Source of the DNA: an uncultured Candidatus Binatia bacterium
GTDB taxonomy: Bacteria; Desulfobacterota; Binatia; UBA9968; JAJDTQ01
DNA: 64,000 nucleotides
Direction of reading: 5' to 3'
NCBI GenBank assembly: GCA_965213675.1
Contig: OZ243916.1
Location: 736,001 to 800,000 of the forward strand
The position numbers and the translations under genes were made by a program. The notes under the pieces are model-generated. The model worked only from the letters and a program-made list of their open reading frames with translations, did no database searches and was not told the DNA's origin. How positions within the stretch are numbered: position 1 is the first letter of the stretch; every line of letters starts with the position of its first letter. Shown here in pieces: positions 10,907 to 63,300 of this stretch.

Positions 10907-11923
10907 ATGATCATCGATTTTCAAAGCCACATCTTCCCTGAACGCTACATGGCGGCCATGGACCGGCGCGACGGCGCCGTGGTGCTGGAGGAGCCGGACC
11001 CCCACAGCGGCATGGCCTATCTCTACGACAAGACTCTCAAGTGCCGCATCAACACCGCCATCTTCAAGGGCCGCAACGTGGAGGAACGGCTGGAGCACAT
11101 GGACCGCCAGGGGGTGGACGTGCAGGTGGTGAGCATCCCCGCGCCCGGCGCCGACCGTTACGATCCGGAGGACGCCGTGGCGCTGGCGCGCGTGGCCAAC
11201 GACGAACTGGCGGCAATGTGCCGGCGCCATCCCGACCGCTTCGTCGGCCTGGCGACGCTGCCCTCCGCCTCCATCGAGGCTTCGTTGCAGGAACTGGAGC
11301 GGGCGGTGCAGGAATTGGGGTTGCGCGGGTTCGGCTGCTTCACCAATCTCAACGGCCGGCCCCTGGACGATGAAATATTCTTCCCCATTTACGAGAAGCT
11401 CGCGGACTACGAGTTGCCGGTCTACCTTCATCCCACCGCGCCGCTGGCCACCGAGGCGGTGGACCTCGACATCGTGCCCATCCTCATCTACGGTTGGGCC
11501 TTCGACAGCACCGTGGCCATGACCCGGCTGGTGTACGGCCGGGTGTTGGAACGCTTCCCGACCCTGCCCTTCGTGGTGGCGGACGTGGGCGGGGTGCTGG
11601 CCTTCTTCGGGCAGCGCGCCATCAACATCTACACCGGCCGCACCGACGAGATGCGCCAGCGTTACGGGCTCAAGGAGAATCCCCTGGACTCGTTCCGGCG
11701 CTTCTTCGTGGACACTGCGGATCATCCGGCCAACACGCTCCAATGCGTGCTGGACTTTTTCGGCCCCGAGCAGATGGTTTTCGGCACCAACTATCCCTAC
11801 GGGCCAGACGATGGCTGCGGCTTCATCCGCAACAGCCTCAAGGCCCTCGACGATCTGGGACTTGCGCCGGAAGCCAGGGAACGGATACTCGGCGGCAACG
11901 CTGCCCGGATTCTGCGCATCTGA
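10907..11923 (+). CDS. Amidohydrolase_2 family protein (ACMSD/decarboxylase-like)
   Basis: IDFQSH, NDELA, YLHP, FGTNYPY, GGNAARIL. Confidence 0.88.
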   Translation: MIIDFQSHIFPERYMAAMDRRDGAVVLEEPDPHSGMAYLYDKTLKCRINTAIFKGRNVEERLEHMDRQGVDVQVVSIPAPGADRYDPEDAVALARVANDELAAMCRRHPDRFVGLATLPSASIEASLQELERAVQELGLRGFGCFTNLNGRPLDDEIFFPIYEKLADYELPVYLHPTAPLATEAVDLDIVPILIYGWAFDSTVAMTRLVYGRVLERFPTLPFVVADVGGVLAFFGQRAINIYTGRTDEMRQRYGLKENPLDSFRRFFVDTADHPANTLQCVLDFFGPEQMVFGTNYPYGPDDGCGFIRNSLKALDDLGLAPEARERILGGNAARILRI

Positions 11924-12033
11924 CGCGCAAGCTCCGAGAGCGACCATGACTCGCGCGGACTCTTCTCCGTACCAGCAGGGCGGGACGGGAGATTTCCGCA
12001 TGGCGGGATCCGGAACACGGGAGAGCTTCGGTC

Positions 12034-13650
12034 ATGTCTCAAGACACCCATGAGATACATTACGGCAAGGCCGCGCGCGCGCTGGTCATGGGATCCCACG
12101 GCGTGGTGGCGGCGGGTCACCCGCTGGCGTCCGTCGCCGGACTCAGGATGATGCAGCAGGGCGGCAACGCCGTGGATGCCGCGGTGGCCGCGGGGTTCGT
12201 CCTGGCGGTGGTCAAGCACGAGGCCTGCGGCCTCGGCGGCGACCTGTTCTCGCTGGTCTACATGAAGGACGAGGGCACGGTCCGGGCGCTCAACGCCAGC
12301 GGCCCGGCCCCGGGCAACGCCACCATCGACGCCTTCAAGAGCCGCGGTCTTGACGCCATACCCACTTCGGGTCCCCTGAGCATTGCGGTGCCCGGAGCCG
12401 TGGACGGCTGGCTGGAGCTGCATCGCCGCTACGGCGCGGTGGACCTGGCCGACGTCTGCGCCGACGCCCTGACCCTCGCCCGCGACGGCTTCCCCCTGTA
12501 CCTTTCTCTGGCCGGCTCCATCGCGGACTGGGCGCCCTCGTGCCCCGACATCCATCGCGGTTTCCGCGCGCCGCTGCCAGACCTGACGCCCGGCAGGCTA
12601 CTGCGCCAGCCCGAACTGGCGGCCGTGCTGGAAGCCATTGTGCGCGACGGCCGGGACGGGTTCTACCGCGGCGGCGTGGCCGCGCGGATGTGCGCGGGCA
12701 TTCGCGCCCAGGGCGGCCTGTTGGAGGAGCGGGATCTGGACGGCCCGTTCGCCGAGTGGCTGGAACCCCTGAGCACCGACTACCGCGGCTATCAGATTCT
12801 GGAGCAGCCGCCGGTGTCCCAGGGGTTCGTGATTCTCACCATGATGAATCTCCTTGAGGGCTACGACTGCTCCAGCATGAGCCCCACCGAGCTGGCCCAC
12901 GTCATGGTAGAAGCCAAGAAGATCGCCTTCGAGGATCGCATCCGCCACCTGGACGATCCCCGCTTCGGCGACCCCGAGGTCGAGCGCCTCATCAGCAAGG
13001 AATACGCGGACGCGCGCCGCGCCGGCATCGGCGACAGCGCGGGACCGCTATCGTCCTCCAGCGCCATGACCGGGAGCGACACCACCTACCTGTGCGCGGC
13101 CGACGGCCAAGGCAACGTGGTTTCGCTCATCCAGAGCGTCTTCTCGGTCTTCGGCTCACGCGTGGTGGCGGGGGACACCGGCCTGGTCATGAACAACCGC
13201 CTGTGCAGCGCCCGGCTCGACCCCAGCGCCGCCAATGCGCTCCAGCCGGGCAAACGTCCCGCGCACACGCTCAACTCCTACATGGTGTTCCACAACGGCG
13301 GGTTCCTGGCCGTGGGCGGCACTCCCGGCGCCGACGACCAGCCCCAGACCAACGTTCAGGTGCTGCACAACTTCCTCGACCTGAAGATGGATCCCCAGTG
13401 CGCTCTGGAAGCGCCGCGCTGGAGTCATGTGCCGGGCACGCCGCCCAACGTCGGTTATCCCCAGAGCCTCCGACTGGAACAGGGATTTCCCGCGGAAGTG
13501 ATCGAAGGCCTGGCGGCCAAGGGACACCCCGTCACGGTGGTGGACCCGTGGTCCTTCGGCGGCGCCGCGCTCATTGCCCGGGACCCGCGCAACGGTGCCC
13601 TCATGGCGGCCGCGGACCCGCGCCGGGACGGCTACGCCGTGGGGTGGTAG
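12034..13650 (+). CDS. Gamma-glutamyltransferase-family Ntn hydrolase (no signal peptide)
   Basis: GGNAVDAA, VPGAVDGW, DTTY autoprocessing Thr, PGKRPAHTL, ADPRRDG. Confidence 0.92.
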   Translation: MSQDTHEIHYGKAARALVMGSHGVVAAGHPLASVAGLRMMQQGGNAVDAAVAAGFVLAVVKHEACGLGGDLFSLVYMKDEGTVRALNASGPAPGNATIDAFKSRGLDAIPTSGPLSIAVPGAVDGWLELHRRYGAVDLADVCADALTLARDGFPLYLSLAGSIADWAPSCPDIHRGFRAPLPDLTPGRLLRQPELAAVLEAIVRDGRDGFYRGGVAARMCAGIRAQGGLLEERDLDGPFAEWLEPLSTDYRGYQILEQPPVSQGFVILTMMNLLEGYDCSSMSPTELAHVMVEAKKIAFEDRIRHLDDPRFGDPEVERLISKEYADARRAGIGDSAGPLSSSSAMTGSDTTYLCAADGQGNVVSLIQSVFSVFGSRVVAGDTGLVMNNRLCSARLDPSAANALQPGKRPAHTLNSYMVFHNGGFLAVGGTPGADDQPQTNVQVLHNFLDLKMDPQCALEAPRWSHVPGTPPNVGYPQSLRLEQGFPAEVIEGLAAKGHPVTVVDPWSFGGAALIARDPRNGALMAAADPRRDGYAVGW

Positions 13651-50864: not shown

Positions 50865-51902
50865 CTAACGTTCCACGGGCAGGCCCGCCTCATTCCAGGC
50901 GACAAGGCCGCCGGCCAGGTTGGAGACGTCCGCAAAGCCCGACCTGCCGAGGATGGCCGCGGCCGTGGCGCTTCGCATTCCGGCCCGACAGACGGTGACC
51001 ACCGGGACTTGCTTGTGTCGCTGAATCTCTTCCAGGCGGTTCATGAGTTCACGCAGCGGCACCAGGACGCTGCCGGGCAAGTGGCCCAAGTCCCCGGAAT
51101 ACTCCGTGGGTTCGCGGACATCCACCAATACTGGCGGCTTGCCAGAGGCCAGCATCGCCTGGAGGCCTTCGACGTCCACCACCTGGACCTTCTTGAGCTC
51201 GCCCCAGTCGGGGAAGCTGATCTCGTCGCATCCGAGGGCGGACTGGTTGGGTTGCAGCACATCCTGGATGTTCTGGGGCGGTGAGAGATTGAGGTTGTTC
51301 ATCAGGTCGATAAAGTCCGGACGCGCGCGGTTGGCGAGACGTGGATTGGTGCGCTTCTCCGCTTCGATGGTGGAGGTGGTGTGGCCGCGGTAATCGTGGC
51401 CTGGATGGATCACGGTTTCCCCGGGTAGTGTGAAGAGCTTCTGCGTGACGGAATCGTATTGAGCGCCCGCATCGCCGCCGGCGAAGTCGGTTCGCCCACA
51501 GCCGCCGATGAACAGCGTGTCGCCGGTGAGGACGTGCCCTTCCACCAACAGGCTCATACCGTCAGGGGTGTGTCCGGGTGTGTGCAGGACTCGCACGGCG
51601 AGATCACCCACCGAGAACATCTCGCCGTCTTCCAGGTGGACGTCGACGGCCGGACTGGGCGCCCATTTGTGCATGGCTATGGGTGAACCCACCAGGAAAC
51701 GCAACTGCGGACAACCGCTCAGATGGTCGGCGTGGGTGTGCGTGTCGATGACCAGATCGAGTTCCAGGCGGTGGTAGGCGAGCACGGCCAGGTAACGTTC
51801 GACGTGGGGGTAAAGAGGGTCCACCAGAACGGCTCGTCCCCTGCCCTCGTCGGCTATAAGGTAGGTCTTGCTGCTCTCTCCGTTCAGTTCCCGCAGGATC
51901 AT
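50865..51902 (-). CDS. Persulfide dioxygenase (ETHE1-like MBL fold)-rhodanese fusion
   Basis: DTHTHADH, TPGHT, GDTLF..GCGRTDF, PGHDY, EKRTNPRL; C-terminal DVREP.EY..GH.PG and CRAGMRS. Confidence 0.9.
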   Translation of the reverse strand: MILRELNGESSKTYLIADEGRGRAVLVDPLYPHVERYLAVLAYHRLELDLVIDTHTHADHLSGCPQLRFLVGSPIAMHKWAPSPAVDVHLEDGEMFSVGDLAVRVLHTPGHTPDGMSLLVEGHVLTGDTLFIGGCGRTDFAGGDAGAQYDSVTQKLFTLPGETVIHPGHDYRGHTTSTIEAEKRTNPRLANRARPDFIDLMNNLNLSPPQNIQDVLQPNQSALGCDEISFPDWGELKKVQVVDVEGLQAMLASGKPPVLVDVREPTEYSGDLGHLPGSVLVPLRELMNRLEEIQRHKQVPVVTVCRAGMRSATAAAILGRSGFADVSNLAGGLVAWNEAGLPVER

Positions 51903-51980
51903 GGCTGCCTTCTCCGCTTTGCCATAACTTCTCCGAGCCCGCCGAAGTGCCTTGCCGCTGGGCTCAGGCCGAAGGGCGGC

Positions 51981-53138
51981 TTAGAAGTAGCGCCATAGCC
52001 ACCATTTTTCGAACAGGACCTTGCTCCAGTAGATCATCCGGGAGGGTCCCCAGGACCGTGAATCGGTGGCGCCGAAGGGCGGCCATCCCTGAGGGTACGT
52101 GGTGCGGTTGGCGGCGGCGCGTCCCGCGCCGCAGGAAAGCAGTCATATGGTGTGCAAATGAAGGGTGGACAACTCCCCTTCCCCGGTGATCTCCGCCACC
52201 AGGTTGTCCGCCACCACGTCCGCTTCCTGATGCGCCACTCCGCCCGCCTTGGACGCGGGCATGTTGGCGCAGTCGCCGATGGCGTAAACGTTCTCCCACT
52301 TGGTTTCCAGGGTGTCGTAATCCACCTGGATGCCGGCTTCGTTGTCCACCAGTCCACAGTCGTAAAGCACCCTGGAGGGCCGGTGCGGCGGCACCATGAA
52401 GAGCAGGTCGTAGGACAGCTCATAGCCGTACAGGCCGTGGACGCGCTTCTTCTCCGGGTCGATGGACTGGATGACGAAGTCGTAGTGGATGGTGACGTTG
52501 CGTTTCTTGCTCTGGGCGTCCATCCACACCGACGGCATGTGTTCCTCGCCCGCGGGCTCAGGCTCGCGGGTAAAATACTGGATGTCCACCAAGTCGCGGA
52601 TGTTGCGTTCCTTGAAGTAGCTGTCCAGCATCCACTGGGCCTCGTACGGCGCCGGCGGACAGCGGTAGGGGCCCAGCGGCACGCCCACCATCACGCGCCC
52701 TTCGCGGAAGCTCTCGAGGCTGGTCTTGAGCCGCAACGCGGCGTCCATTTCCCAGGGATGATGCGCCCCTTCGGCGAAGCCGGGAAGCAGGTCGGGTCTC
52801 ACTTCCAGGCCCAGCGAAACCACAAGGTAGTCGTAGGGGATGGCCGTGCCATCCAGAATCACCTGCTGGCGGCCGGGGTCGATTCCCAGGATCTCCGCCT
52901 GAAGGACCCGGATGTTGCGCTTCTCCAGGCGCTTGAGTTTGCGGGATATGTCCTCGGGCCGGCGCTGCCCGACCATGAGGAACAGGAAGGCGGGCATGAA
53001 GACGTGATCCGTCCGGCGGTCGATGAGGGTGATGTCGTGGTCCGCGCCGAGAGCGCGGCCCAGCTTGGTGGCCGCGACCACCCCGCCGCTCCCGCCTCCG
53101 AGGACGACGATCTGTTTCCTTCCGTTATGGTAATGCAT
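51981..53138 (-). CDS. Probable selenocysteine-containing sulfide:quinone oxidoreductase-like flavoprotein (385 aa, Sec332)
   Basis: GGGSGG, YDYLV, CPPAPYE (Cys160), AIGD; in-frame TGA at 52145-52143 followed by 53 codons ending PSRMIYWSKVLFEKWWLWRYF-TAA. Confidence 0.85.
52114..52145 (-). promoter_or_regulatory. UGA codon plus bacterial SECIS-like hairpin
   Basis: UGA CUGCUUUCCU GCGGCGCG GGA CGCGCCGC: perfect 8-bp GC stem, G-initiated loop 18 nt after the UGA. Confidence 0.75.
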
Positions 53139-53376: not shown

Positions 53377-54342
53377 TCAACGGAGGAACGTGTCTTCCTG
53401 GGCAAGCTGGACCGCGGCCTGATCAAAGGCGACCTCGTCCGGTTCGCCATCCCCCAGGATGCCGATCTGGCTCAGGAACTGGCCGATCTGCGCGTGATCC
53501 CGCGGGCTCACCGGCGAGTACGGCCGCGCCGGATCCCCGATGTCCACGCCGAAATGCTTGAGGGCCGACTTCATGATCGGGGGCAACCCGTAGGCGCCCC
53601 ACTTGCCTGGGAAGAGCGTGAAGCAACGTTGCCAGTAGCGCGCCTTGTCCACATCGCCATCCCGGAAAGCCCGCACCACCCGCGCGCCGATGCGTGTTCC
53701 CGGCGGCGGCATGGTGGCGCCGGCGCCTCCCATCATGAGCGTGGTCAACAGCGGCTGCATGGTGGTGAAGTAGTTGGCTTTGCCGGCAAGCTGAATCTGC
53801 TCGATGAGTCGGGTGATTTTGGTAATGTCCCTCGAGCTTTCCTTGAAGTAGTCCACCTTGTTCAGCTCGCTCAGCCGCACGAATGCGTCGAGGGGCGGGT
53901 CGGCGCCCGGACCGGGGTTGTGATAGGCGACGATGGGCAACGGACTCGCCGATGCCACCTCGGTGAAGAACTGCACCAGATCCGAGATGGTCGGTTGTCC
54001 GCCCCAGGGACGAATGGGCATCAGCACCTGAATCAGGTCGCCGCCCACGGCTGCGGCGTGCTCGGCCAGATCCAGGATGGTGTCGATGGAGTGACTGGAG
54101 GCCCCGAGGATGACGGGCACGCGCTTGTTGACGATTTCCGTGGCGCGCCGCATCACTTCCTTGCGATCAGCAAGCGAGAGGACCGTGTATTCCGACGCTT
54201 CCACCGCGGCGATGGAGACCGCGTCGCAATCGGCCACGAGAAACTCGATCTCGCGCGCCAGGCCGTCGTAGTCCACCTGCCCGTCGTCCGTGAACGGGGT
54301 CAGGGCCGCGCCGATGATTCCTCTGATGGGGCTAGCCAGCAT
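53377..54342 (-). CDS. Dihydrodipicolinate synthase (DapA)-family class I aldolase-like protein
   Basis: TPFTDDGQVD, E...LS..DR, LPIVAYHNP, YFKESS Schiff-base Lys; lacks the canonical GTTGE. Confidence 0.85.
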   Translation of the reverse strand: MLASPIRGIIGAALTPFTDDGQVDYDGLAREIEFLVADCDAVSIAAVEASEYTVLSLADRKEVMRRATEIVNKRVPVILGASSHSIDTILDLAEHAAAVGGDLIQVLMPIRPWGGQPTISDLVQFFTEVASASPLPIVAYHNPGPGADPPLDAFVRLSELNKVDYFKESSRDITKITRLIEQIQLAGKANYFTTMQPLLTTLMMGGAGATMPPPGTRIGARVVRAFRDGDVDKARYWQRCFTLFPGKWGAYGLPPIMKSALKHFGVDIGDPARPYSPVSPRDHAQIGQFLSQIGILGDGEPDEVAFDQAAVQLAQEDTFLR

Positions 54343-54359: not shown

Positions 54360-55013
54360 TCACTGCAACTCGGCGACGATCCTCGCGTGCGCCGCGTCGC
54401 TGCCCTGAACCTTGAGGGGCAGCGCCATGATGCGGCAGTTCCGACCTGCGATGGCGCCGAGATTGGTGACGTTCTCGGCGATCAGCACGTCGTTCCCCAG
54501 CAAGGTTCGATGCACCGGAAAGTCGAAGCCTTTGGGCCGAAGCGGGGTGGGCAAGTCCACTGTAATGCAGTCGATGCCGAAGAGTTTCACCCCGCGCTGG
54601 ACGATCCATTCTGCCGCATCTACGGACAGATAGGGGTGCATATTGTATTCATCACTTTCAAATTTCTCGTCCCAACCGGTGTGCAGCATGAGGATGTCGC
54701 CGCGGTTGACGGGCACCCCGGATCCTTCCAGATCCCTGGCCGTGACCTCCTTGCCGCCGTCCGTCTGCACGGAGATGACCGCGCCCGGGCCCATGAACGC
54801 CTCGAGGGGCAGTTCCTCGATGGATTTGCCGTCGGGCACGATGTGCACGGGAGCGTCCACGTGGGTGCCTGCGTGAACAGGCAGGTTGATCTCGGTGACG
54901 TTGAGCGGATGGCCTTTGCCGAGGTCGAAAAACCGCTGCACATGCACGTCCGGCAGCGCCGGGATCTTGGGCATGCCGTCGTAGATGAGGCGCGAGAGAT
55001 CGATGATGGACAT
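54360..55013 (-). CDS. Cyclase family (kynurenine formamidase-like) metal hydrolase
   Basis: HAGTHVDAP.H, GID, AEN..NL, PLK..GSD. Confidence 0.9.
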   Translation of the reverse strand: MSIIDLSRLIYDGMPKIPALPDVHVQRFFDLGKGHPLNVTEINLPVHAGTHVDAPVHIVPDGKSIEELPLEAFMGPGAVISVQTDGGKEVTARDLEGSGVPVNRGDILMLHTGWDEKFESDEYNMHPYLSVDAAEWIVQRGVKLFGIDCITVDLPTPLRPKGFDFPVHRTLLGNDVLIAENVTNLGAIAGRNCRIMALPLKVQGSDAAHARIVAELQ

Positions 55014-55031: not shown

Positions 55032-55781
55032 TCAGGCCGAAGCGCCGTTGCGCCACGCGGCGTAGATGGGATCCTTGTCGACGAAGGCGCGTTTGATGCC
55101 GTCAAACGCCAGCCAGAACTGGTCCAGGGTCTTTCGCACGGACTGGCGCACCACATCCTGCTGTGGGTCCGTGACGGCGTAACGGCTCACCGCCAACGGT
55201 CCTACCTTCATGTGTTCCTCGTCCACGCCCATGTGCAGGGTCCAGTAACGGATGTCGTCGCTTTCCCGGTCGAAGCCGTAGTGGGTGGTCAGTCCGGTGA
55301 CGATGCGGCTCATGCGCTCGCTGGCCGTGCCTTCCAGGCAGAAACCCTGGCAGGCGTAAAGCTCGAGCCACGAGCGCTGGTACATGAGCAGGTCGCGCCA
55401 GTCGAGAAACGCCGAGGTTTCGGGCAACGGCTGCACCGCATCGAGCTCTGCCTTGGACGCGTAGCCGCAATTCATCGCGAAACGGATGAAAAGGCCGCGG
55501 TGGCTGTCCGTGCCGGAGATCTCGCCTGTGCCCTCTTCCACCACGTTCTCGATCCACATCCGTTCCAGCTCGGGGTCCTCGGGGCAGCGCCCGAGCATGG
55601 CCGCGATGGGCTTGGGGAAGGGCTTGGGGAAAAAAAGGTAGAACTGGCCCACGAACCCCTTGAGCGCTTCGCGGTCCAGTTCTCCCCGTTCGATCATCCC
55701 GATCAGCGGGTTGTCCTTGGAATGTTTGGCGCGCACCGCTTCGTGTATCTCGTTGACGAACTCTTCGCCGGAAAGTGCCAT
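55032..55781 (-). CDS. Heme-oxygenase-like diiron protein (TenA/PqqC/CADD superfamily)
   Basis: ENVVEE..G....H, LE and HMGVDEEH ligand pattern; GAGGGAG RBS. Confidence 0.8.
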   Translation of the reverse strand: MALSGEEFVNEIHEAVRAKHSKDNPLIGMIERGELDREALKGFVGQFYLFFPKPFPKPIAAMLGRCPEDPELERMWIENVVEEGTGEISGTDSHRGLFIRFAMNCGYASKAELDAVQPLPETSAFLDWRDLLMYQRSWLELYACQGFCLEGTASERMSRIVTGLTTHYGFDRESDDIRYWTLHMGVDEEHMKVGPLAVSRYAVTDPQQDVVRQSVRKTLDQFWLAFDGIKRAFVDKDPIYAAWRNGASA

Positions 55782-55938
55782 CGACTCTGCTCTCCCTCGT
55801 TGGATTGACTTGTTGTGGGATGCGGCCGGTCCCGATGTCGCGTCCGTCGACATCGGGACCGGCGGGGCATTACAACGAAACCGGAGTGTTACTGGAAAGC
55901 CTCCGCCATCGCAACCGTTGTGGCCGCCAAGCCGTGCC

Positions 55939-56964
55939 TCACCGGTCGAGGCTGTAGAAGCGCCGGGCGTTGTTGCCCAAAATGTTCTCCTTGGCTTCCC
56001 GCGTCAGGTCGGCCCGCCCCCAGATCAGCGAGCCGGACTCCGGCCAACTCATGTCCCAATGGGGATAGTCCGACGCGTACATGATGGTTTCGGAGCCGAT
56101 CTCCCCCACCACGTAGCCGATGGTCTTTTCGTCGGGTTCGCACCCGTAGAAAACGTTCTTGCTGGTGATGTAATGACTGGGCTCGCGCTTGCACTCCGGG
56201 GCCTCCACCGAGCCGCGCTTCTCCCACTCCTCGTCCATCCGGTCCGACCAGTAAGGGATCCAGCCGCAACCGATCTCCAGAAACCCGAGCTTCAGGTTCG
56301 AAAACTGCTCGGGAACGCCCGCGAAGATCATGGCCGTGAGCTGCCGCAGCACCGGGAACGGATGGCCGGTGGTGTGGATGGAGATGAACTGGTCGAAGAT
56401 TTCGCTGCCCGGCTCGTCGCCGCCAAAGGCATGAATGGCCAGCGGCGTGTCGAGCCTCTGCGCTTCCTCGTAAAGCGGGAAGAACTCGGTCGAGCCGAAG
56501 TTCTTGCTGTGGCCTTGGGCCGCCATCATGCCGCCCACCAGCCCGAGATCCTGAACCGCATGACGCAGCTCCTCAACCGCCGCCGCCGGAGCGTTGACCG
56601 GCAGGTTCGCCACCGCCTTCAAACGCGGCGAGGCCTTGCAGTAGTCGGAGATGAACTCGTTGTAGGCACGGCACAACTGCGTCTGGTAGTTGGGCTCGCG
56701 GATGTGACCGATGCCCAGACCACTGGTGGGGTACATGACCGCGGTGTCGATCTCCTGGGTGTCCATGGCCGCCAGCCGTTCCTCGTGCTTGATGCCCGAG
56801 TGCCCGAGCGTCCCGCCGAGGTTCCGGTCGTAGGGTTCCCGCGGGATGAACGGCGGACGCCGGTTCTGGAAGGCATCTCCCAGAAACGGCTTGACGAGAT
56901 CGTCGTTGTCGCGCGCATGTGCGTCGGCGTCGATCACCTTGAAGGACGGATCGATCTTACCCAT
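55939..56964 (-). CDS. Amidohydrolase_2 family protein
   Basis: IDADAH, YPT, AIH, FLE.G..W, ASDYPH.D, NARRFY; GGGAG RBS. Confidence 0.9.
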   Translation of the reverse strand: MGKIDPSFKVIDADAHARDNDDLVKPFLGDAFQNRRPPFIPREPYDRNLGGTLGHSGIKHEERLAAMDTQEIDTAVMYPTSGLGIGHIREPNYQTQLCRAYNEFISDYCKASPRLKAVANLPVNAPAAAVEELRHAVQDLGLVGGMMAAQGHSKNFGSTEFFPLYEEAQRLDTPLAIHAFGGDEPGSEIFDQFISIHTTGHPFPVLRQLTAMIFAGVPEQFSNLKLGFLEIGCGWIPYWSDRMDEEWEKRGSVEAPECKREPSHYITSKNVFYGCEPDEKTIGYVVGEIGSETIMYASDYPHWDMSWPESGSLIWGRADLTREAKENILGNNARRFYSLDR

Positions 56965-57303: not shown

Positions 57304-60300
57304 TCACCAGTTGAGGGCGACCTTGAAGCGGAGGATGTGTTCGGGTTTTGAGTGAGCGGCGTCCCTTCGGGTGGCGTTTAGGCCGAGTTGGAGATCGTGG
57401 GCGTTGTTGCGGGCCAGGGGGTTGAAGCGCCAGCCCAGGCTGTAGTCGCGGGCGCCGGCGGCGAAGCCGAAGCCTAGATGGGGGCTGGCGGCGAAGCGGC
57501 GGTCGAGGACCGGGAAGCCGTAGGCGGCTTCGGCCAGCCAGCGGCTCTCGGCGGTACCGCCCGCGCCGCCGCGGGTGTCCAGGGGGTCGGGGGCGAACAG
57601 GGCGTCGATGCCGCCTTTGGCCTGTCCGCCCCAGTCCTGACGAAGAGTCAGGGAGGGGCCGAGAGTGGTTGCCGGGTCGGGGTTGTAGGCGAGGGAGGCG
57701 GCAAAGCCCCGGTCCTCCAGATCATCGGACCCGTGGGCCAGCAGGGTGCGGCCCTCGACATCGAGGCGGAGGCCCAGGGCGGGGTCGCTCCAGGCAATGC
57801 CGCCGCCGAGTTCGATGCCCGTGCCGGTCTCGGCATCGCCGCCGTCATGGCGCGCGCCCACTTCGAGCCTGGGCGTCAGATGGCCGTTTTGGTCCAGGGC
57901 GATCTTCCAGCTTCCCTCCAGACCGAGCCTGAGCCGGGTCACATCGGAGTCCGAGGCCGCGAGGTCCCGGGTCTTCTCCGAAGAGGTCCGCGCCCAGAGC
58001 GCGTCCGACTCAAGCGCCAGCGCCGGCCCGGAGCGTTGCTTCTGCGGGGACCACAGGTTCCCACGGAAGCCCAACGCCGCCATGGTCCAGGAAACGTCCG
58101 ACTTGAACACGCCGCCGACCTCCGGCTTGAGGGTCACCGCGCCGGCGCCGTAGCCTGCCGCGCCCCAGAGCTTCAGCCGCTCGGTGGCCTGGAAAGAGGC
58201 GTAGGGTATGGCCGCGGTCAGCGATGCGTCGAGGCTGCCGTCGCCCTCGCGCACGGCGCCTTCGCACAGAACCTTCCTGGCATCGTCGCTCATGTGGTCC
58301 GCGCCGGCTTCGGCGCAGGGTTCAGGGGCCGTGTCCGTGTCCGCATAGGCGCCCTCCCCCTCGCTGTGGGTGAGGGCGAGGCCGGCCATCCAGCGGTTCC
58401 GGGCGTAGTCCGCCCCGAGCATGCCGGTGGTGGTGTCGCCGTCAAGGGAGAAGGTCCCTTCCCTGCCGTCGAAGTGCGCCTGCGCGGCCTGGCCCCAGAA
58501 GGTCAGGCTGCCGCCTTTGGCGTCCTTGCCGCCGGTGGCGGTGAAGCGGCTCTGGAGCATGAGTTCCCGCAAGCTCAGGGCTCTCCATGCCGAAGCGGTC
58601 CCTGGCTCGGCGCCGTCCTGGACGCCACCCGTAAGGCCCTTGGCCCGGGCTCCGGGCGCGGCGTGGTCATGGGCCGCGGTCTGCCATCCCGGGCCGGACC
58701 CGGTTTCCTGGGAAGCGGTGCTGCCGTCCGGCAGCGCCTGTCCCGCCAGGGTGCCCTGCACGCCCGCCTCCCGCGGCGCCCTCATCCGGCTCGCGATGCC
58801 GTCCAGCGCCTGCTGGGCCACCGTGCGGCCGAACCGGCTCAGCCACGCCTTGGGCATCGGGTCGTTGTTGACGATGGTGCCCACCGCAACCCCGTCGCCG
58901 ATGGCCGTGCCCCCCGTCGGGTTCGACAGCGCCACCTCGAAGGTCTCCGGGTCCTCGTCGTGATTGTCGTTGTAGACGTAGACCCACATCCGCTTCTCGG
59001 TCTGGCCCGGATGGAAGGTGAGCGCGATGCCGTTCGGCCACCACCAGAACCAGTCCTCGCCCTGCCGGGCCGAGACCGGGCTCGCCTCGCGCGCCGTGAA
59101 GGTCACCTTCACCGTCTGCTGCACGGCCCGGTCGAGCCGCACCGTGAAATACATCAGCCCGACATCCTCGTTGGCGGTCTCGTCGCCCACCGAGAAGGTC
59201 GGAGCCGTCGCCGCCGCATCGTCGTCGGTCACCTTCACCGAGGCCGCATTGTCCGGCGCCGCCGCCACCGTGTAGCGCAGCCCCTTCTCGCCGTCCCCGG
59301 CAAGGGTCGCGGTCACCGTCCCGCCGGGCTCGTCCGCCGTGTCGTTCACCGTCGGCACCGTAAAGGTGGCCTCTGTCTCGCCCTTCGGCATGGTCGCCGT
59401 GGCGGTCCCCTCATGCTCGGCCGCCACGAAGTCGCTGCCGTCGGCCTCCGAGACCGTGAGCCTGACCGTCAGGTCCGCGCCGGGCGCCCGGCTCGCCGTC
59501 AGGGTGAAGCTGGCGTCCGCGCCCTCCGCCACGGTCCCGGTCTTCGCCGCGATGGCGATCTCCGGCGGCGGCTCCAGGATGGCGAAGCCGGCCGCGCCCG
59601 AGGCCGCCGCCCCGCCGCCGAGGCCGGTGGCGACCGGCGTGCCCGGCTTTACCGTCACCGTCTCCCGCTCGCCCTCGGCCACGCTGTCCGCCACCGTCGC
59701 CAGCACCAGCGTCGCCGCTGTCGCCGACTTGCGCCCCGCGGCGCCGGCGAAGGTCACCGCCGGCGGGTTCTTCGGATCGGTACCGCCAAGGTGGGTATAG
59801 GTCACGCCCGCGGGCGCCGTCTCCGGCGCGGCCAGCGTGTAGTCGGTGCCGAGCGTGGCCGTGCCGGCAAACGCCAGCGGCACCGACAGGCTCTCGCCCT
59901 CCACCAGCGCCCGCCCGAGCGTCAGCGTCAGCGTCTTGGAGCCCGACGCCTCGGGCAGGTCGCCATCCGGCGCCGTCAGCACTACCGCGGTGGCATCGTC
60001 GTCCTCCACCGCCACGCTTGCGCTCTTGCCCTGGTCGTCCACCGTATAGCCGGGGCCGTCGCTCACCGTCGCCGTGACGGCGCCTGCCGGCTCGTCGGTC
60101 TCGTCGGCCAGCGTCGCCACCGTGAAGGCCGTCTCGGCCTGCCCGGCCGGGATCGTCACAATGCGTTCGCCCAGCGCCGAAGCGTCGGCAATGGCGCCGG
60201 TCTGCGCCACCGCCACCGTCACCGCGAGCTCTTCCGCCGGCGCCGGATCGGCCTTGAGCGTGAAGCCCGCCGCCGTGCCTTCCGTCACCCCCGCTCCCGC

Positions 60301-63300
60301 GGTTACGGTGATCGCGGGAACCGCCTGTTGCGCCTCTGCCTGTACCTCCGCCTGCGCCGGCTCCTTCTCCAGGCATTCCAGCGCCGGCGCCACCGGCGCC
60401 CAGCGCTGAAGGCCGCGGTCCGCCTGCGCCTGCGCCTCGGCGATGGTCATCGGGTTGTTGCTCCAGGCGTTGCTCTCCCCGAAGGCGGCCAGCACCCGGC
60501 TCCAGCGCTCGACATGGCCCGGCGAAGTCCGCCAGGTCTCGCCCGCAGCCTTCCGGGCGTCGGCCAGCAGGGCGTCGGAGACGCAGGCCGGCGCCTGGCT
60601 GTCGGTGCTCTGCGCGCTGGCGCTCAGCGCGTCGCTGCCCGGCCCTACCGCCAGGGTTGCCGTGCCGGCGAGGCTGTCCAATTGCTGCGTGTCGCCGTTC
60701 TTGTCGACATATTCCGGCGTGACCGTGACCGTCAGCGTCATCGGCACCGAGGCGCCGTGGTCGATGGTGGTCGTGGTGCCTGTCACGCCGGGCAAGTCAC
60801 CGGCGGAAGCATTCAGCGAGTCGCCGCTCTCGGCACTCCACGACACGTCATAGGAGGTGGCATGCTCCACCGCGTCCCAGGTGACGCTGGCGCTGGCGTC
60901 GTCCACCGCCGTCACCTGCAGGTTGGCCACCGCCTCGGTGGGCGCCGGGGCGGCCGTCGCGGGTGCCGCTTGCGTGTTGCCGGTCAGGTTGCGGCATTGG
61001 GTGTTGTAACCGCTTGACCCCCGTCTGTTGCGCGACGGGTTCCTTACATGGGCGCGGATCGTATCGACCGTGACCTTGCGCACGCCGCCGCCTGTGGCGG
61101 TGTGGGTGATGTCGGCGCAGGTGTCGTCGATGTTCCGCGAGGCGTCCTTGCGGACCACATAAATCATGCGCCAGCACTCCCAGGGCGTGTCCGCCGTGCC
61201 GTCGTAGCTCTCGCTCGGCTGCCGGCCCGACACTGTCCGCGTGTTGCCGTGGCTGTCGAAGTATTGATGCGCTTGATGGCCGAACCAGTTGCTGCAGCCC
61301 GTGCCTGCGCCGGGACTGCGGTCCTTGAACTCCACCGTCACCGTGTCTTGCGCCGTGCCGCCCTCGGTCAGCGACAGGCCGACGAGGTTCCGCTTGTCCG
61401 AAGGCACCGTCGCCATCACGGTCACCGTGCCGCCCGGCTCCGGGCGGTTCGACAGGCGCACGGCATAATTAATTCTGTCGCCGGGCGCCGCGTTCTGCCA
61501 CGGCGTCAGCCCGGGCGTTGACGTTATCGTATGCGGTCGCCGGATCCGCGCGCCGCCCGCGCCGCCCTTGATGTACCAAAACGCCTCGACCTCGGGCGCG
61601 TCGTCCACCGCTACCCGGACATTGCCCAGGTTCTGGCTGGAATAGCCGCCGCCGTTGGCCGTGTGCGTCAGCCTCATATCTGGCCGGTTGCGATGCGTAT
61701 TGAGCTCGTCCACGCCGGTCACCGTCACCGGCTGGGGCGTCTGATAGTTCGATGACGTGAATGTGAGCGTTCCCGGGCTGAAGTTCGCCGCCCATCTGTT
61801 CCCGCCGTCCCTGCCGATGGTGACGGTGGTGTTGCCGCCGGAGGGGGCGGTCGTCAGTCGTACGCAATAGGTCGTTTCGCCGGTCTCGAGGATGCGAAGG
61901 CTGGTTTCGCTGAAGACGGTGTTCTGGGCAGGGCATGCCGGCGTCGCGGCCTCGTCGTCCGCCAGCGTCAGGGTCGCCATGTAATCTGACGCATGCCGCT
62001 GCGCGCCGCCGCTCACCGTCGTGCCGATGCCGGTGGCGCCGAGCACGCTGTTGGTCGCCAGTGTCGCGGTGATGGTCTCGTGGGCCATGTTCCCGTCGTC
62101 GCGGCTCGCTACCGGGGTCAGTGTCACCGTCGCCGTCTGCACGGTGCGTTCGTCGTCGCCGGTGAAGGTCAGCCGCGGGTTGGCCGTCTCTTCGTTCGCG
62201 CTTGTCACGCCGCTTTGCCCGGACGCAGCCGCGGCCGCGACCGTGAAGTCGTGGTTGGCGGTGCCGCTGTTCGTGCTCCCCGGCAGCCGCGCCCCGGTGC
62301 TCGACGCCAGCGTCAACGGCACGACGATGACCTCGCCGGCATACAACTGGCGAGACAGCGAAACCGTCAGCACCGCCGTGTCCGAGGCGTCGCCCTCGGT
62401 CATGGTCATGTCAGAACTCGTGAGCGAGACCGTGGTCGCCTCGTCATCCTGTATGAGCAGCTTGTCGGAGGCGTCGCTGGACGAGACCGTGTAGCTGTCA
62501 CTGGCCTCAGAGCAGCCCACGGTGTTCGGCGCCACCGCCTCGACGGTGACGCTGCTGTCCAGATCGTCGGTGGCGGTGTTGGTCCAGGTGAGGGTATGGA
62601 TGCCCGAGCCGTTGGTGACGCTGCTCGGCATGGTCACCGTATGGATGCCCTCGTTGCCCGAGGCCACCCGGTCGCCGCCGCTCTCGGTCACCCGCACGCA
62701 CACCGTCAGGTCGCTCGTCAGCGGCCGGTCGGCGGCAAGGCTGAACCCGATGCCGACCCCGCCATCGCTCTCCGCGACCTTCTTCTCGCCCGCATCCGAG
62801 CGGTTCTCGCCCTCGCTGATCGGCAGCGACACCGAGATCACCGGGGCGTTGGCATTTGCCGGTGTTGCCGACATCTCGTCCGAGAACGCGCCTCCCAGAC
62901 TGCCTTGGGCGTTGATCGCCAGCGTATGCACCTGGAAGGTGTAGGTGGTGCCGTTGGTGAGGCCGGTGACCGTGTGGCTGGTGGTGCTGCGGTCGGCGCC
63001 GCTGATTGTCATGAAGGAGCCGTAGCTGCCCGACCCCGCCTTCTGCCGATACTGCAACCGGGTGAAAGATGAGCTGAAAGCGTTCCATGACAGGATGACC
63101 TCACCGTCACCCGCCGTGGCTGTGAAACCCGTGGTCGCCGACGGGGCGGGGGGAGGATTGGTGGCGTCGTCATCCTGGATCGTATAGGTCACCACAGAGG
63201 TGCCGAGGGTCACGCCGGCGGGCGGGGTGCCATTGAAGGACAGCGTTACGACCACTGTCTCATGGAATTCGATGGTGGTGTCGCCCCGTATGCGCATGCC

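What the first reader, a model, noticed from the sequence alone, without database searches (positions are those of the whole stretch)
51981..53138. Hidden selenoprotein: SQR-like flavoprotein with UGA at the second catalytic cysteine position and a SECIS-like hairpin
Seen: the ORF track stops at ...LHLHTI-TGA (331 aa). The same frame continues LLSCGAGRAAANRTTYPQGWPPFGATDSRSWGPSRMIYWSKVLFEKWWLWRYF-TAA (stop at 51983-51981). Ten nt after the UGA there is a perfect 8-bp GC stem with a GGA loop. Known: SQR/FCSD flavoproteins use two redox cysteines, one in CPxAP (here Cys160) and one about 50-70 residues from the C-terminus in a C-h-h-x-x-G strand, followed by an amphipathic K..FEK.W membrane helix. 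Bacterial SECIS elements sit just 3' of the UGA with a G at the start of the apical loop. Inference: the TGA encodes Sec332, giving a Cys/Sec redox pair and a UxxxC motif. Standard annotation would call this gene truncated. I cannot tell from sequence alone whether this family is already catalogued as a selenoprotein.
Basis: partly seen in the sequence, partly recalled or inferred. Interest (0 to 1): 0.92.

Follow-up and report, generated by a model that had tools for sequence, protein, structure and literature searches.

The report
Selenocysteine sulfide:quinone reductase, mis-called truncated
The "331-residue" gene is really a 385-residue sulfide-oxidising flavoenzyme whose internal TGA almost certainly encodes selenocysteine at a catalytic cysteine position. 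A selenium form of this enzyme family was first catalogued in 2025, but in a different branch, and databases routinely cut this one short.

Summary
The ORF at 52143..53138(-) ends at TGA, and the same frame runs on to TAA at 51981-51983, giving 385 residues.

Evidence that the TGA encodes selenocysteine:
- It aligns with the second redox cysteine of SQR (human SQOR Cys379). That column is Cys in 126 of 167 aligned rows.
- It is conserved in 53 of 53 related genomes that carry the gene, and in 153 of 153 further loci.
- The 53 codons after it are under strong purifying selection (dN/dS about 0.03) and fold confidently into the SQR core.
- A hairpin 12 nt downstream (6 bp, loop NGGNC) holds the three most synonymously constrained of 125 testable codons in the gene.
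- selA, selB, selD and tRNA-Sec are present on the same contig.

Only 6 of the 8 stem pairs are conserved, and the UxxxC motif is not conserved.

The kind is already known. A selenoprotein subtype of type III SQR (NCBIfam NF049943, from the 2025 deep-Sep study) has Sec at the same column. This Binatia-centred clade scores 260 bits against a cut-off of 525. It sits in a different branch of the tree and has a different SECIS. It is therefore a new, probably independently evolved, member that databases systematically annotate as truncated.

The parts
51981..53138 (-). Full selenoprotein gene: 385 codons including Sec332, plus the TAA stop at 51983-51981. SQR-family FAD flavoprotein.
   Evidence: Read-through translation. 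Pfam Pyr_redox_2 at 83.8 bits and FCSD_central at 36.3 bits, both over their cut-offs. AF2 model with mean pLDDT 94.2 over the whole length. Foldseek TM 0.85-0.87 to solved SQRs.
52143..52145 (-). In-frame TGA, read as Sec332 within the motif H-T-I-U.
   Evidence: Aligns with the Cys of human SQOR 'YTSCPLVTG'. TGA in 53 of 53 genomes carrying the gene and in 153 of 153 further loci. The column is Cys in 126 of 167 aligned rows.
52115..52131 (-). Conserved SECIS-like hairpin. The 5' arm CGGCGC is at 52131-52126, the loop NGGNC (GGGAC here) at 52125-52121, and the 3' arm GCGCCG at 52120-52115. The stem starts 12 nt after the UGA and the loop 18 nt after it (17 nt lie between UGA and loop).
   Evidence: RNAalifold predicts exactly this hairpin on 45 distinct sequences. 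269 of 270 cells are paired. 117 of 120 further distinct fragments keep 6 of 6 pairs, and the loop GG is present in 120 of 120. Stem codons 337, 340 and 341 are the three lowest-entropy codons of the 125 conserved degenerate codons.
52114..52132 (-). It is a genus-specific extension of the conserved core by one outer and one inner pair.
   Evidence: Columns 14/32 and 21/25 pair in the genus but not in most other lineages.
52659..52661 (-). Cys160 codon (TGT) in RCPPAPYE. This is the first redox cysteine, equivalent to human SQOR Cys201.
   Evidence: phmmer alignment to 8dhk 'VKCAGAP'. Invariant in the 60-sequence alignment.
53082..53099 (-). Glycine-rich dinucleotide (FAD) binding motif, residues 14-19 (GGGSGG).
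   Evidence: G14 and G19 are invariant and G16 and G18 nearly so. Pyr_redox_2 matches residues 9-139. That this motif binds FAD is established knowledge of the fold, not tested here.
51987..52040 (-). C-terminal helix, residues 367-384 (..IYWSKVLFEKWWLWRY). A likely amphipathic membrane anchor, encoded entirely after the TGA.
   Evidence: DSSP helix 367-384 with block pLDDT 96-97. K373 is nearly invariant. Membrane binding is inferred from what is known of SQRs.
50865..51902 (-). Downstream gene, 345 aa: a fusion of a metallo-beta-lactamase fold (persulfide-dioxygenase-like) with a rhodanese domain. It starts 78 nt after the SQR stop and is the probable operon partner.
   Evidence: Pfam Lactamase_B and Rhodanese. 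NCBIfam partial match to the bifunctional sulfur transferase/dioxygenase Blh, 97 bits, below its cut-off. Found downstream in all 26 genus loci; in L014 it lies about 1.3 kb further off. No terminator-like site between the two genes.

Best explanation
The gene encodes a 385-residue membrane-associated FAD flavoprotein of the sulfide:quinone oxidoreductase (SQR) family. UGA332 is decoded as selenocysteine by SelB and tRNA-Sec. A small SECIS hairpin inside the coding sequence directs this: a 6-bp G/C stem whose NGGNC loop begins 18 nt after the UGA.

Sec332 takes the place of the second redox cysteine (human SQOR Cys379) and works with Cys160 (human Cys201) next to the flavin. By analogy with the published human mechanism, the Cys379-position residue has three roles:
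- it carries the outgoing sulfane sulfur;
- it is the leaving group when an acceptor removes that sulfur;
- it then attacks the Cys201-flavin adduct to reset the enzyme.

A selenol is more acidic, a better nucleophile and a better leaving group than a thiol, so it should speed up these steps.

The product, a persulfide or sulfane sulfur, is probably passed to the persulfide-dioxygenase/rhodanese fusion encoded just downstream, while the electrons go to quinone.

[quoted passage not shown] What is inferred: actual selenium insertion, sulfide and quinone as substrates, and the kinetic benefit of Sec.
For: 1. Position. U332 aligns with the Cys379-equivalent and C160 with the Cys201-equivalent of human SQOR. 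The column is Cys in 126 of 167 aligned rows.

2. Conservation of the TGA. All 53 of the 61 related genomes that have the gene (14 of 14 genera, 3 families) carry exactly one TGA, and homology continues to residue 385. All 50 extracted order-level sequences have it at the same column. So do 73 of 73 genome loci and 80 of 80 metagenome loci that cover the column.

3. The region after the TGA is translated.
- Within-genus dN/dS is 0.026 for codons 333-385, with no indels in 50 sequences.
- The AF2 model places U332 in the middle of strand 329-337, followed by strands 340-347 and 359-366 and helix 367-384 (mean pLDDT 94.2).

4. TGA is still a stop codon in these organisms. It terminates this same gene in 22 of the 50 orthologues.

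5. The SECIS.
- RNAalifold finds the same 6-bp stem and 5-nt loop.
- 269 of 270 cells are paired, and all 5 stem changes are G-C to G-U or C-G to U-G.
- The three most synonymously constrained codons of the 125 testable are stem codons G337 (GGC 50/50), R340 (CGC 49/50) and A341 (GCC 47/50). Loop third positions vary freely.
- The Cys-form (P0006) and the Asn-form (P0019) of the same clade have a different peptide at this spot (EPGK, GPGH), which cannot encode the stem.

6. Same SECIS geometry as other selenoprotein genes in the genome. Seven of the ten top candidates from a hairpin-plus-coding-signal scan match families that NCBIfam names as selenoproteins or '(seleno)proteins'. An eighth is a rhodanese/3-MST-type protein with TGA at the active-site loop. 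In all eight the loop starts 17-20 nt after the UGA (16-19 nt intervening) and has G at its first or second position. The SQR loop starts 18 nt after the UGA, with 17 nt intervening.

7. Sec machinery. selA, selB, selD (itself containing a TGA) and tRNA-Sec lie on the same 3.97-Mb contig. SelA is found in 52 of the 53 related genomes with the TGA gene.

8. Function. Pfam Pyr_redox_2 and FCSD_central. Best solved matches are SQRs, TM 0.85-0.87. Persulfide-dioxygenase/rhodanese fusion as neighbour. The mechanism of the Cys379 position is taken from passages of PMC11039317.
Against: - There is no experimental evidence of selenium in the protein.
- The stem shows no compensatory double substitution: 0 of 6 pairs. 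The structural evidence rests on invariance and wobble-only changes.
- The local fold is no more stable than shuffled sequence, z = -0.02.
- The hairpin is short compared with the E. coli fdhF SECIS (recalled), and Rfam gives no hit.
- The protein fails the curated cut-off of the only selenoprotein-SQR model: 259.9 bits against 525.
- One related genome, G054 (96% complete, 210 contigs), has the TGA gene but no SelA was found.
- A Cys form and an Asn form exist within the clade, so Sec is not indispensable to the fold.
- Substrates (sulfide, quinone) are inferred from homology and the neighbouring gene only.
Confidence: 0.88

Rival explanations
1. The full-length protein is made, but the UGA is read by a near-cognate tRNA (Trp, Cys or Arg) or by another read-through mechanism, not as selenocysteine.
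For: Sequence alone cannot show which residue is inserted. The hairpin is small and shows no compensatory covariation. Rfam gives no match.
Against: The column is a catalytic Cys in homologues, which is the classic Sec/Cys pairing. A complete Sec machinery lies on the same contig. SelA co-occurs in 52 of 53 genomes with the TGA gene. The hairpin has the same spacing and loop G as other selenoprotein genes of the genome. Selection keeping a leaky stop at an active-site residue across three families would be hard to explain, since TGC/TGT is one substitution away.
Confidence: 0.04
2. The TGA is a genuine stop. The gene is a truncated 331-aa protein or pseudogene, the result of a sequencing error, or a gene split into two polypeptides.
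For: Gene callers and databases annotate it this way: 113 of the best 120 hits are 328-336 aa.
Against: The TGA is present in 53 of 53 genomes and 153 of 153 further independent assemblies. dN/dS is 0.026 downstream, with no indels. A stop at 332 would cut a beta-strand and remove three strands, the C-terminal helix and the second catalytic residue. In the window there is no ATG, GTG or TTG between the TGA and codon 368, and 41 of 50 orthologues have none in codons 333-360.
Confidence: 0.02
3. It is a selenoprotein, but its physiological reaction is not sulfide:quinone oxidation. Alternatives include polysulfide or persulfide handling, a different sulfur or selenium substrate, or a different electron acceptor.
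For: No assay exists for any member of this clade or for NF049943. The closest characterised proteins are only 21-26% identical in structural alignment. The clade sits on a long stem branch of 0.7. The PDO-rhodanese neighbour is not seen within the 1.5-kb flanks of three loci from another family, L033-L035. The conserved upstream neighbour is an unrelated DHDPS-family gene.
Against: Both redox positions, the FAD motif, the FCSD_central domain and the C-terminal helix typical of SQRs are present. All top structural matches are SQRs or flavocytochrome c sulfide dehydrogenases. In the window's genus the gene is followed by a persulfide-dioxygenase/rhodanese fusion, the usual partner in sulfide oxidation.
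Confidence: 0.15

Closest known systems
[quoted passage not shown] It is listed with motif HxxU in the 2026 review PMC13188914.
   Same: Same superfamily and domain order. Sec is at the same alignment column, with the same HxxU spacing (H-T-I-U here, H-A-T-U there). Cys-containing relatives exist in both. Both are computational predictions only.
   Different: - Identity is 32-36%.
- This protein scores 259.9 bits against the 525 cut-off, whereas clade f17 members score 643-669.
- The two Sec groups lie in opposite halves of the tree. Forcing them into one clade costs 631 log-likelihood units, p-AU 6e-37.
- The SECIS differs: there a 7-bp stem GAGAAGG/CCUUCUC with a GGUC loop starting 26 nt after the UGA; here a 6-bp stem CGGCGC/GCGCCG with an NGGNC loop starting 18 nt after it.
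- This protein is about 40 residues shorter at the C-terminus.
Human mitochondrial SQOR (PDB 8dhk, 6oi5, 6oib) and bacterial SQRs of known structure (A. ferrooxidans 3sxi/3t2z, A. aeolicus 3hyv)
   Same: Same fold, TM 0.85-0.87. Best sequence match in the PDB, E = 2e-32. Cys160 and U332 align with the Cys201/Cys379 pair that forms the active-site trisulfide.
   Different: All solved SQRs use cysteine at this position. Identity is 21-26%. This protein is shorter (385 aa against 405-430).
[quoted passage not shown]
   Same: Another bacterial selenoprotein of the pyridine-nucleotide-disulfide oxidoreductase superfamily.
   Different: Different family and a different Sec position. TIGR03385 scores only 33.4 bits here against a cut-off of 578.8.
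Mammalian thioredoxin reductase (recalled from general knowledge, not examined here)
   Same: A flavoprotein of the same broad superfamily that uses a Sec/Cys redox pair.
   Different: There Sec lies in a flexible C-terminal GCUG tail remote from the flavin and is inserted through a eukaryotic 3'-UTR SECIS. Here Sec replaces a core active-site Cys in a beta-strand next to the flavin and uses an in-frame bacterial SECIS.

Membership tests
Bacterial selenoprotein gene (SelB/SECIS-dependent UGA decoding) | In-frame UGA aligned with Cys in homologues | tested here: met
   Column 332 is Cys in 126 of 167 rows. A Cys orthologue, P0006, is 68% identical.
Bacterial selenoprotein gene (SelB/SECIS-dependent UGA decoding) | UGA conserved among orthologues, with coding conservation continuing downstream | tested here: met
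   53 of 53 genomes, 50 of 50 extracted sequences and 153 of 153 further loci have it. Downstream dN/dS is 0.026.
Bacterial selenoprotein gene (SelB/SECIS-dependent UGA decoding) | Stem-loop immediately 3' of the UGA with a small apical loop containing G (feature as described in passages of PMC1088965) | tested here: met
   A 6-bp stem with loop NGGNC, GG in 120 of 120 distinct fragments. Synonymous sites of the stem are uniquely constrained. There is no compensatory covariation.
Bacterial selenoprotein gene (SelB/SECIS-dependent UGA decoding) | selA, selB, selC (tRNA-Sec) and selD in the genome | tested here: met
   SelA 517.7 bits, SelB wing domain 75.5 bits, SelD 377.3 bits (with its own TGA), and tRNA-Sec (tca) on C1 and C4.
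Bacterial selenoprotein gene (SelB/SECIS-dependent UGA decoding) | Selenium actually incorporated at the UGA | not testable with these tools
   Needs 75Se labelling or mass spectrometry.
NCBIfam NF049943 (type III SQR, selenoprotein subtype) | HMM score at or above the curated cut-off of 525 bits | tested here: not met
   259.9 bits and 253.8 bits on the genome. Positive controls L064, L082 and L073 score 664-667 bits.
NCBIfam NF049943 (type III SQR, selenoprotein subtype) | Sec in an HxxU motif at the second redox Cys | tested here: met
   H-T-I-U here aligns column for column with H-A-T-U of NF049943-scoring sequences. The motif is listed in the review table.
NCBIfam NF049943 (type III SQR, selenoprotein subtype) | Forms one clade with the family's Sec members | tested here: not met
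   The two groups are in opposite halves of a 69-row tree, each nested among Cys rows. The AU test rejects a single Sec clade, p = 6e-37. Caveat: the group was named after the tree had been seen.
SQR/FCSD flavoprotein family | Pyr_redox_2 and FCSD_central domains over Pfam cut-offs, and the SQR fold | tested here: met
   83.8 bits (cut-off 26.1) and 36.3 bits (cut-off 27). TM 0.85-0.87 to 8dhk, 3sxi and 3hyv.
SQR/FCSD flavoprotein family | Two redox-active residues flanking the flavin (CPxAP Cys and the C-terminal Cys) | tested here: met
   C160 is invariant, and position 332 is Sec here and Cys in homologues.
SQR/FCSD flavoprotein family | Sulfide-dependent quinone reduction and membrane association through C-terminal helices | not testable with these tools
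   Only a predicted C-terminal helix, residues 367-384, and the PDO-rhodanese neighbour bear on this.
'Type III' SQR in the structure-based classification (recalled: Marcia et al. 2010) | Type-specific sequence fingerprints or grouping with characterised type III enzymes | not tested
   No reference type III sequence was in hand. The label comes only from NCBIfam's name for the nearest model.

The most novel reading that the evidence does not exclude
Two SQR lineages replaced the same catalytic cysteine (the human Cys379 position) with selenocysteine independently. Each invented its own SECIS inside the coding sequence. In the Binatia-centred lineage the Sec form has become essentially fixed across a whole order of widespread soil and groundwater bacteria: all 53 genomes with the gene and all 153 further loci. 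This would point to a strong, recurrent selective advantage of a selenenyl-sulfide (or Se-S-S) centre next to the flavin for sulfide oxidation. It would also mean that a large share of environmental 'SQR' genes are selenoenzymes that annotation pipelines currently truncate.
Probability: 0.6. Interest if true: 0.55.

Novelty: new member of a known kind. Interest (0 to 1): 0.45.

Why it matters
- Annotation. At least the 113 of 120 nearest database proteins are called as 328-336-residue fragments, and the names the sources give them are generic ('NAD(P)/FAD-dependent oxidoreductase', 'sulfide:quinone oxidoreductase'). They lack a catalytic residue, three strands and the membrane helix. NCBI's selenoprotein-SQR model does not rescue them because its cut-off excludes this clade. 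A second model or a lower cut-off would correct the annotation of these genes (206 loci examined here).
- Biochemistry. No selenocysteine SQR has been characterised. The enzyme offers a natural Sec/Cys pair (P0006 is the Cys form at 68% identity) for testing what selenium does at the persulfide-carrying position of the SQR mechanism.
- Evolution and ecology. A probable second, independent Cys-to-Sec switch at one site, fixed in Binatia-like bacteria, links selenium availability to sulfide detoxification or oxidation in soils and aquifers.

Tried and rejected
- Rfam scan of 51900-52300 at E up to 10. It returned only chance hits (miRNA and lncRNA models) and no SECIS model.
- Single-sequence fold statistics. 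z = -0.02, uninformative in GC-rich DNA.
- Search for compensatory covariation in the stem. None found: 0 of 6 pairs. A longer lower stem was considered and rejected, because columns 14/32 pair only where residue 336 is Cys.
- The UxxxC redox motif. Rejected as a family feature.
- Genetic-code reassignment of TGA. Rejected, because TGA terminates the same gene in 22 of 50 orthologues.
- FdhA as a comparator SECIS. The formate-dehydrogenase homologues of this genome contain no TGA. Other selenoprotein genes were used instead.
  - A hairpin-only genome scan was too unspecific: 1035 candidates, or 90 with loop filters. A codon-position GC filter was added.
  - Two of the ten top candidates (L251, L252) matched no NCBIfam family and are left open.
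- L072 (G352). It has a TGA inside the match, but my extraction broke there (35-aa product). It was left out of the alignment and not followed up.
- Recovering the DNA of the Cys form P0006 from metagenomes. The 80 best loci were all TGA forms at 70-76% identity to P0006, so the relaxation of the hairpin in Cys forms rests on the protein sequences of P0006 and P0019 only.
- Literature. Searches for 'Binatia' with 'selenocysteine' and 'Binatota' with 'selenoprotein' returned no papers. 'Sulfide quinone reductase' with 'selenocysteine' returned 4 papers, of which only the 2026 review is relevant. The listings led to that review and to deep-Sep.
  - For PMC13188914, PMC12013277, PMC13326102, PMC1088965 and PMC11039317 I saw passages through 'find', not whole texts.
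  - Supplements are closed. deep-Sep Table S2 and the BSepDB family tables might already list Binatia members, and I could not see them.
- Not used: sequencing-run and read tools, complex prediction, the ESM Atlas, and the look-up of encoding contigs (closed).
Full report
OBSERVATION

On the minus strand an ORF of 331 codons (53138 to 52146) ends at a TGA at 52145-52143. The same frame stays open for 53 more codons, to TAA at 51983-51981. Ten nucleotides after the TGA the window has a perfect 8-bp G/C stem with a GGA loop. Taken alone, the hairpin is not remarkable in this GC-rich DNA: MFE is -19.9 kcal/mol against -19.86 for shuffles, z = -0.02.

WHAT THE PROTEIN IS

The 385-residue read-through product matches Pfam Pyr_redox_2 and FCSD_central above their cut-offs. 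Its best relatives among solved structures are sulfide:quinone oxidoreductases: human SQOR at E = 2e-32, followed by flavocytochrome c sulfide dehydrogenases and bacterial SQRs.

In the printed alignment Cys160 (RCPPAP) pairs with the Cys of 'VKCAGAP', and the TGA pairs with the Cys of 'YTSCPLVTG'. These are chain residues 161 and 339. They correspond to Cys201 and Cys379 of the precursor if the crystallised chain starts 40 residues in. According to passages of PMC11039317, these two residues form the active-site trisulfide.

An AlphaFold2 model built on 60 sequences is confident over the whole length (mean pLDDT 94.2, pTM 0.93). It places residue 332 in the middle of strand 329-337, followed by strands 340-347 and 359-366 and a terminal helix 367-384. 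Foldseek gives TM 0.85-0.87 to human, A. ferrooxidans and A. aeolicus SQRs. A stop at 332 would therefore remove a catalytic residue, part of the core sheet and the likely membrane helix.

IS THE TGA DECODED?

Conservation of the TGA:
- In 61 related genomes, 53 have the gene (14 of 14 genera, three families of one order). Every match that covers the column contains exactly one TGA, with homology running on to residue 385.
- I extracted 50 of these sequences (67-100% identical). All have the TGA at the same column, in the motif LHTI-U-LL..GAGRAA.
- A scan of named genome records gave 73 of 73 loci with TGA. A metagenome scan seeded with the Cys form gave 80 of 80 with TGA.

Evidence that the downstream region is translated:
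- The downstream codons evolve like coding sequence. Within-genus dN is 0.012 and dS 0.465, so dN/dS is 0.026, with no indels in 50 sequences.
- In the window there is no ATG, GTG or TTG between the TGA and codon 368. 41 of the 50 orthologues have none in codons 333-360. Independent initiation of the tail is therefore implausible.
- TGA is not reassigned, because it terminates this same gene in 22 of the 50 orthologues.

In a 167-row alignment with distant homologues the column is Cys in 126 rows, U in the 7 rows I read through, and another residue in 15. The remaining 19 rows do not reach the column (17) or have a gap there (2).

THE SECIS

Across 45 distinct sequences RNAalifold predicts a 6-bp stem (CGGCGC/GCGCCG) closing a 5-nt loop NGGNC. 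The stem starts 12 nt and the loop 18 nt after the UGA. Of 270 cells, 269 pair. The five changes seen are all G-C to G-U or C-G to U-G, and there is no double compensatory change. Among 120 further distinct fragments, 117 keep 6 of 6 pairs, and the loop GG is invariant.

The strongest evidence is synonymous constraint. Of 125 conserved degenerate codons in the gene, the three with the lowest codon entropy are exactly the stem codons:
- Gly337: GGC in 50 of 50;
- Arg340: CGC in 49 of 50;
- Ala341: GCC in 47 of 50.

The third positions that fall in the loop (Ala338, Gly339) vary freely.

The two non-Sec members of the clade carry different peptides here (EPGK in P0006, which has Cys; GPGH in P0019, which has Asn), and these cannot encode the stem.

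THE SEC MACHINERY

The window's contig (C1, 3.97 Mb) carries selA, selB and selD as a cluster at about 2.714-2.718 Mb. selD itself contains a TGA. It also carries a tRNA-Sec.

A scan of the genome for TGA plus hairpin plus a coding signal on both sides gave ten top candidates. Seven of them match families that NCBIfam names as selenoproteins or '(seleno)proteins':
- UGSC;
- two GrdB-type selenoprotein B;
- OsmC-related;
- PrdB-like;
- deiodinase-family;
- SelL-related (weak match).

An eighth is a rhodanese/3-MST-type protein with TGA at the active-site loop. The hairpin loops of these eight start 17-20 nt after the UGA (16-19 nt intervening) and have G at the first or second position. The SQR loop starts 18 nt after the UGA, with 17 nt intervening.

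SelA is found in 58 of the 61 relatives, and in 52 of the 53 that have the TGA gene. The exception is G054, a 210-contig MAG. Two genomes without a SelA match over the cut-off, G029 and G041, also lack the gene.

CONTEXT

A fusion of a persulfide-dioxygenase-like metallo-beta-lactamase domain with a rhodanese domain starts 78 nt downstream, with no terminator-like site in between. It follows the SQR gene in all 26 genus loci; in L014 it lies about 1.3 kb further off. It is adjacent but convergent in L036, and it is not seen within the 1.5-kb flanks of L033-L035. A DHDPS-family gene lies upstream in 30 of 30 loci and is followed by a terminator-like hairpin in the window.

MECHANISM (INFERRED)

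In the published human mechanism:
- HS- opens the Cys379-S-S-S-Cys201 trisulfide.
- The Cys201 persulfide engages FAD.
- The Cys379 persulfide hands its sulfane sulfur to an acceptor.
- The freed Cys379 thiolate then attacks the flavin adduct, regenerating the trisulfide and giving FADH2, which reduces quinone.

Sec at this position would act as carrier, leaving group and resolving nucleophile. These are steps that a selenol should accelerate.

COMPARISON WITH WHAT IS KNOWN

[quoted passage not shown] It cites deep-Sep (2025), which predicted an NAD(P)/FAD-dependent oxidoreductase selenoprotein in two Desulfosediminicola species.

I tested membership directly. This protein scores 259.9 bits against a cut-off of 525. 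Sequences from family code f17 of the same phylum score 664-667 bits; they have TGA at the same column (H-A-T-U), and their Cys relatives score 643-669 bits.

The two Sec groups are 32-36% identical. They use unrelated SECIS hairpins: in the f17 group a 7-bp stem with a GGUC loop starting 26 nt after the UGA. They fall in opposite halves of a 69-row tree, each nested among Cys-bearing rows. Forcing all Sec rows into one clade costs 631 log-likelihood units, p-AU 6e-37, and at least four Sec/non-Sec changes are needed on the tree. Two caveats apply: the group was named after the tree had been seen, and the tree is unrooted.

The nearest full-length representatives outside the clade are only 36-39% identical and carry Cys.

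VERDICT

The idea of a Sec-SQR is no longer new, since it was catalogued in 2025-26. This Binatia-centred clade is a separate, probably independently evolved member that the existing model misses and that databases truncate (113 of the best 120 hits are 328-336 aa). Whether BSepDB or the deep-Sep supplements already list it could not be checked, because supplements are closed.

Noticed in passing
G000:C1, outside the window: 1241293-1241904, 11728-13080, 3018349-3020769, 437016-437645, 181965-182813, 1598047-1600410, 3533454-3534350, 1471006-1471683 (loci L253-L260): The genome has a sizeable selenoproteome. In-frame TGA plus a hairpin occurs in genes matching the UGSC family, two GrdB-type selenoprotein B, an OsmC-related (seleno)protein, a PrdB-like protein, a rhodanese/3-MST (TGA at the active-site loop), the deiodinase family, and a weak SelL-related redox protein.
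   Followed up: partly
G000:C1:3746336-3747886 (L251) and 3604947-3605774 (L252): Two further TGA-plus-hairpin candidates show a coding-like GC3 signal on both sides but match no NCBIfam family. L251 looks like a multi-pass membrane protein. They could be unknown selenoproteins or false positives.
   Followed up: no
L003 (G000:C1:2717463-2718389): selD itself carries an in-frame TGA (..KAAG-U-AAKLG..) and so is a selenoprotein. It sits directly after selA and selB.
   Followed up: partly
G000:C1:1670229-1672280 and other FdhA-like loci (L241-L250): The formate dehydrogenase alpha homologues contain no TGA. In this organism the Sec machinery therefore serves other enzymes than the usual FdhA.
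   Followed up: partly
G000:C1 c323213-323307 and G000:C4:3174-3268: There are two tRNA-Sec genes. Each lies next to an Fdh-like match (C1:324118-325035 and C4:1446-2366), so contig C4 looks like a second copy of that C1 region. This fits the 8% contamination or strain heterogeneity reported for the bin.
   Followed up: no
P0019 (383 aa, NCBI source) and P0006 (385 aa, JGI source): These are rare non-Sec members of the clade. P0006 has Cys at the Sec column and nests inside the Sec clade, so it is probably a reversion. P0019 has Asn there while keeping the first Cys, and is the sister of the clade. It may be catalytically different or inactive.
   Followed up: partly
Their NCBI labels look wrong. 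Eight Acidobacteriota-labelled records, including a 3.59-Mb chromosome (L147), carry the TGA form at 65-68% identity. This could be real spread beyond Binatia.
   Followed up: partly
L072 (G352:C13:810361-811515): This NF049943-like homologue in family code f48 has one TGA inside the match. It does not seem to lie at the Sec column, because my extraction stopped after 35 residues.
   Followed up: no
window 53377-54342(-), 54360-55013(-), 55032-55853(-), 55939-56964(-): Upstream on the same strand lie a DHDPS-family gene (conserved next to the SQR in 30 of 30 loci), a putative cyclase, a Haem_oxygenas_2/TenA-like iron enzyme and an Amidohydro_2 gene. This is an unrelated-looking catabolic cluster.
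   Followed up: no
window 57304-63297(-): A very long ORF of 1997 aa. It was not examined.
   Followed up: no
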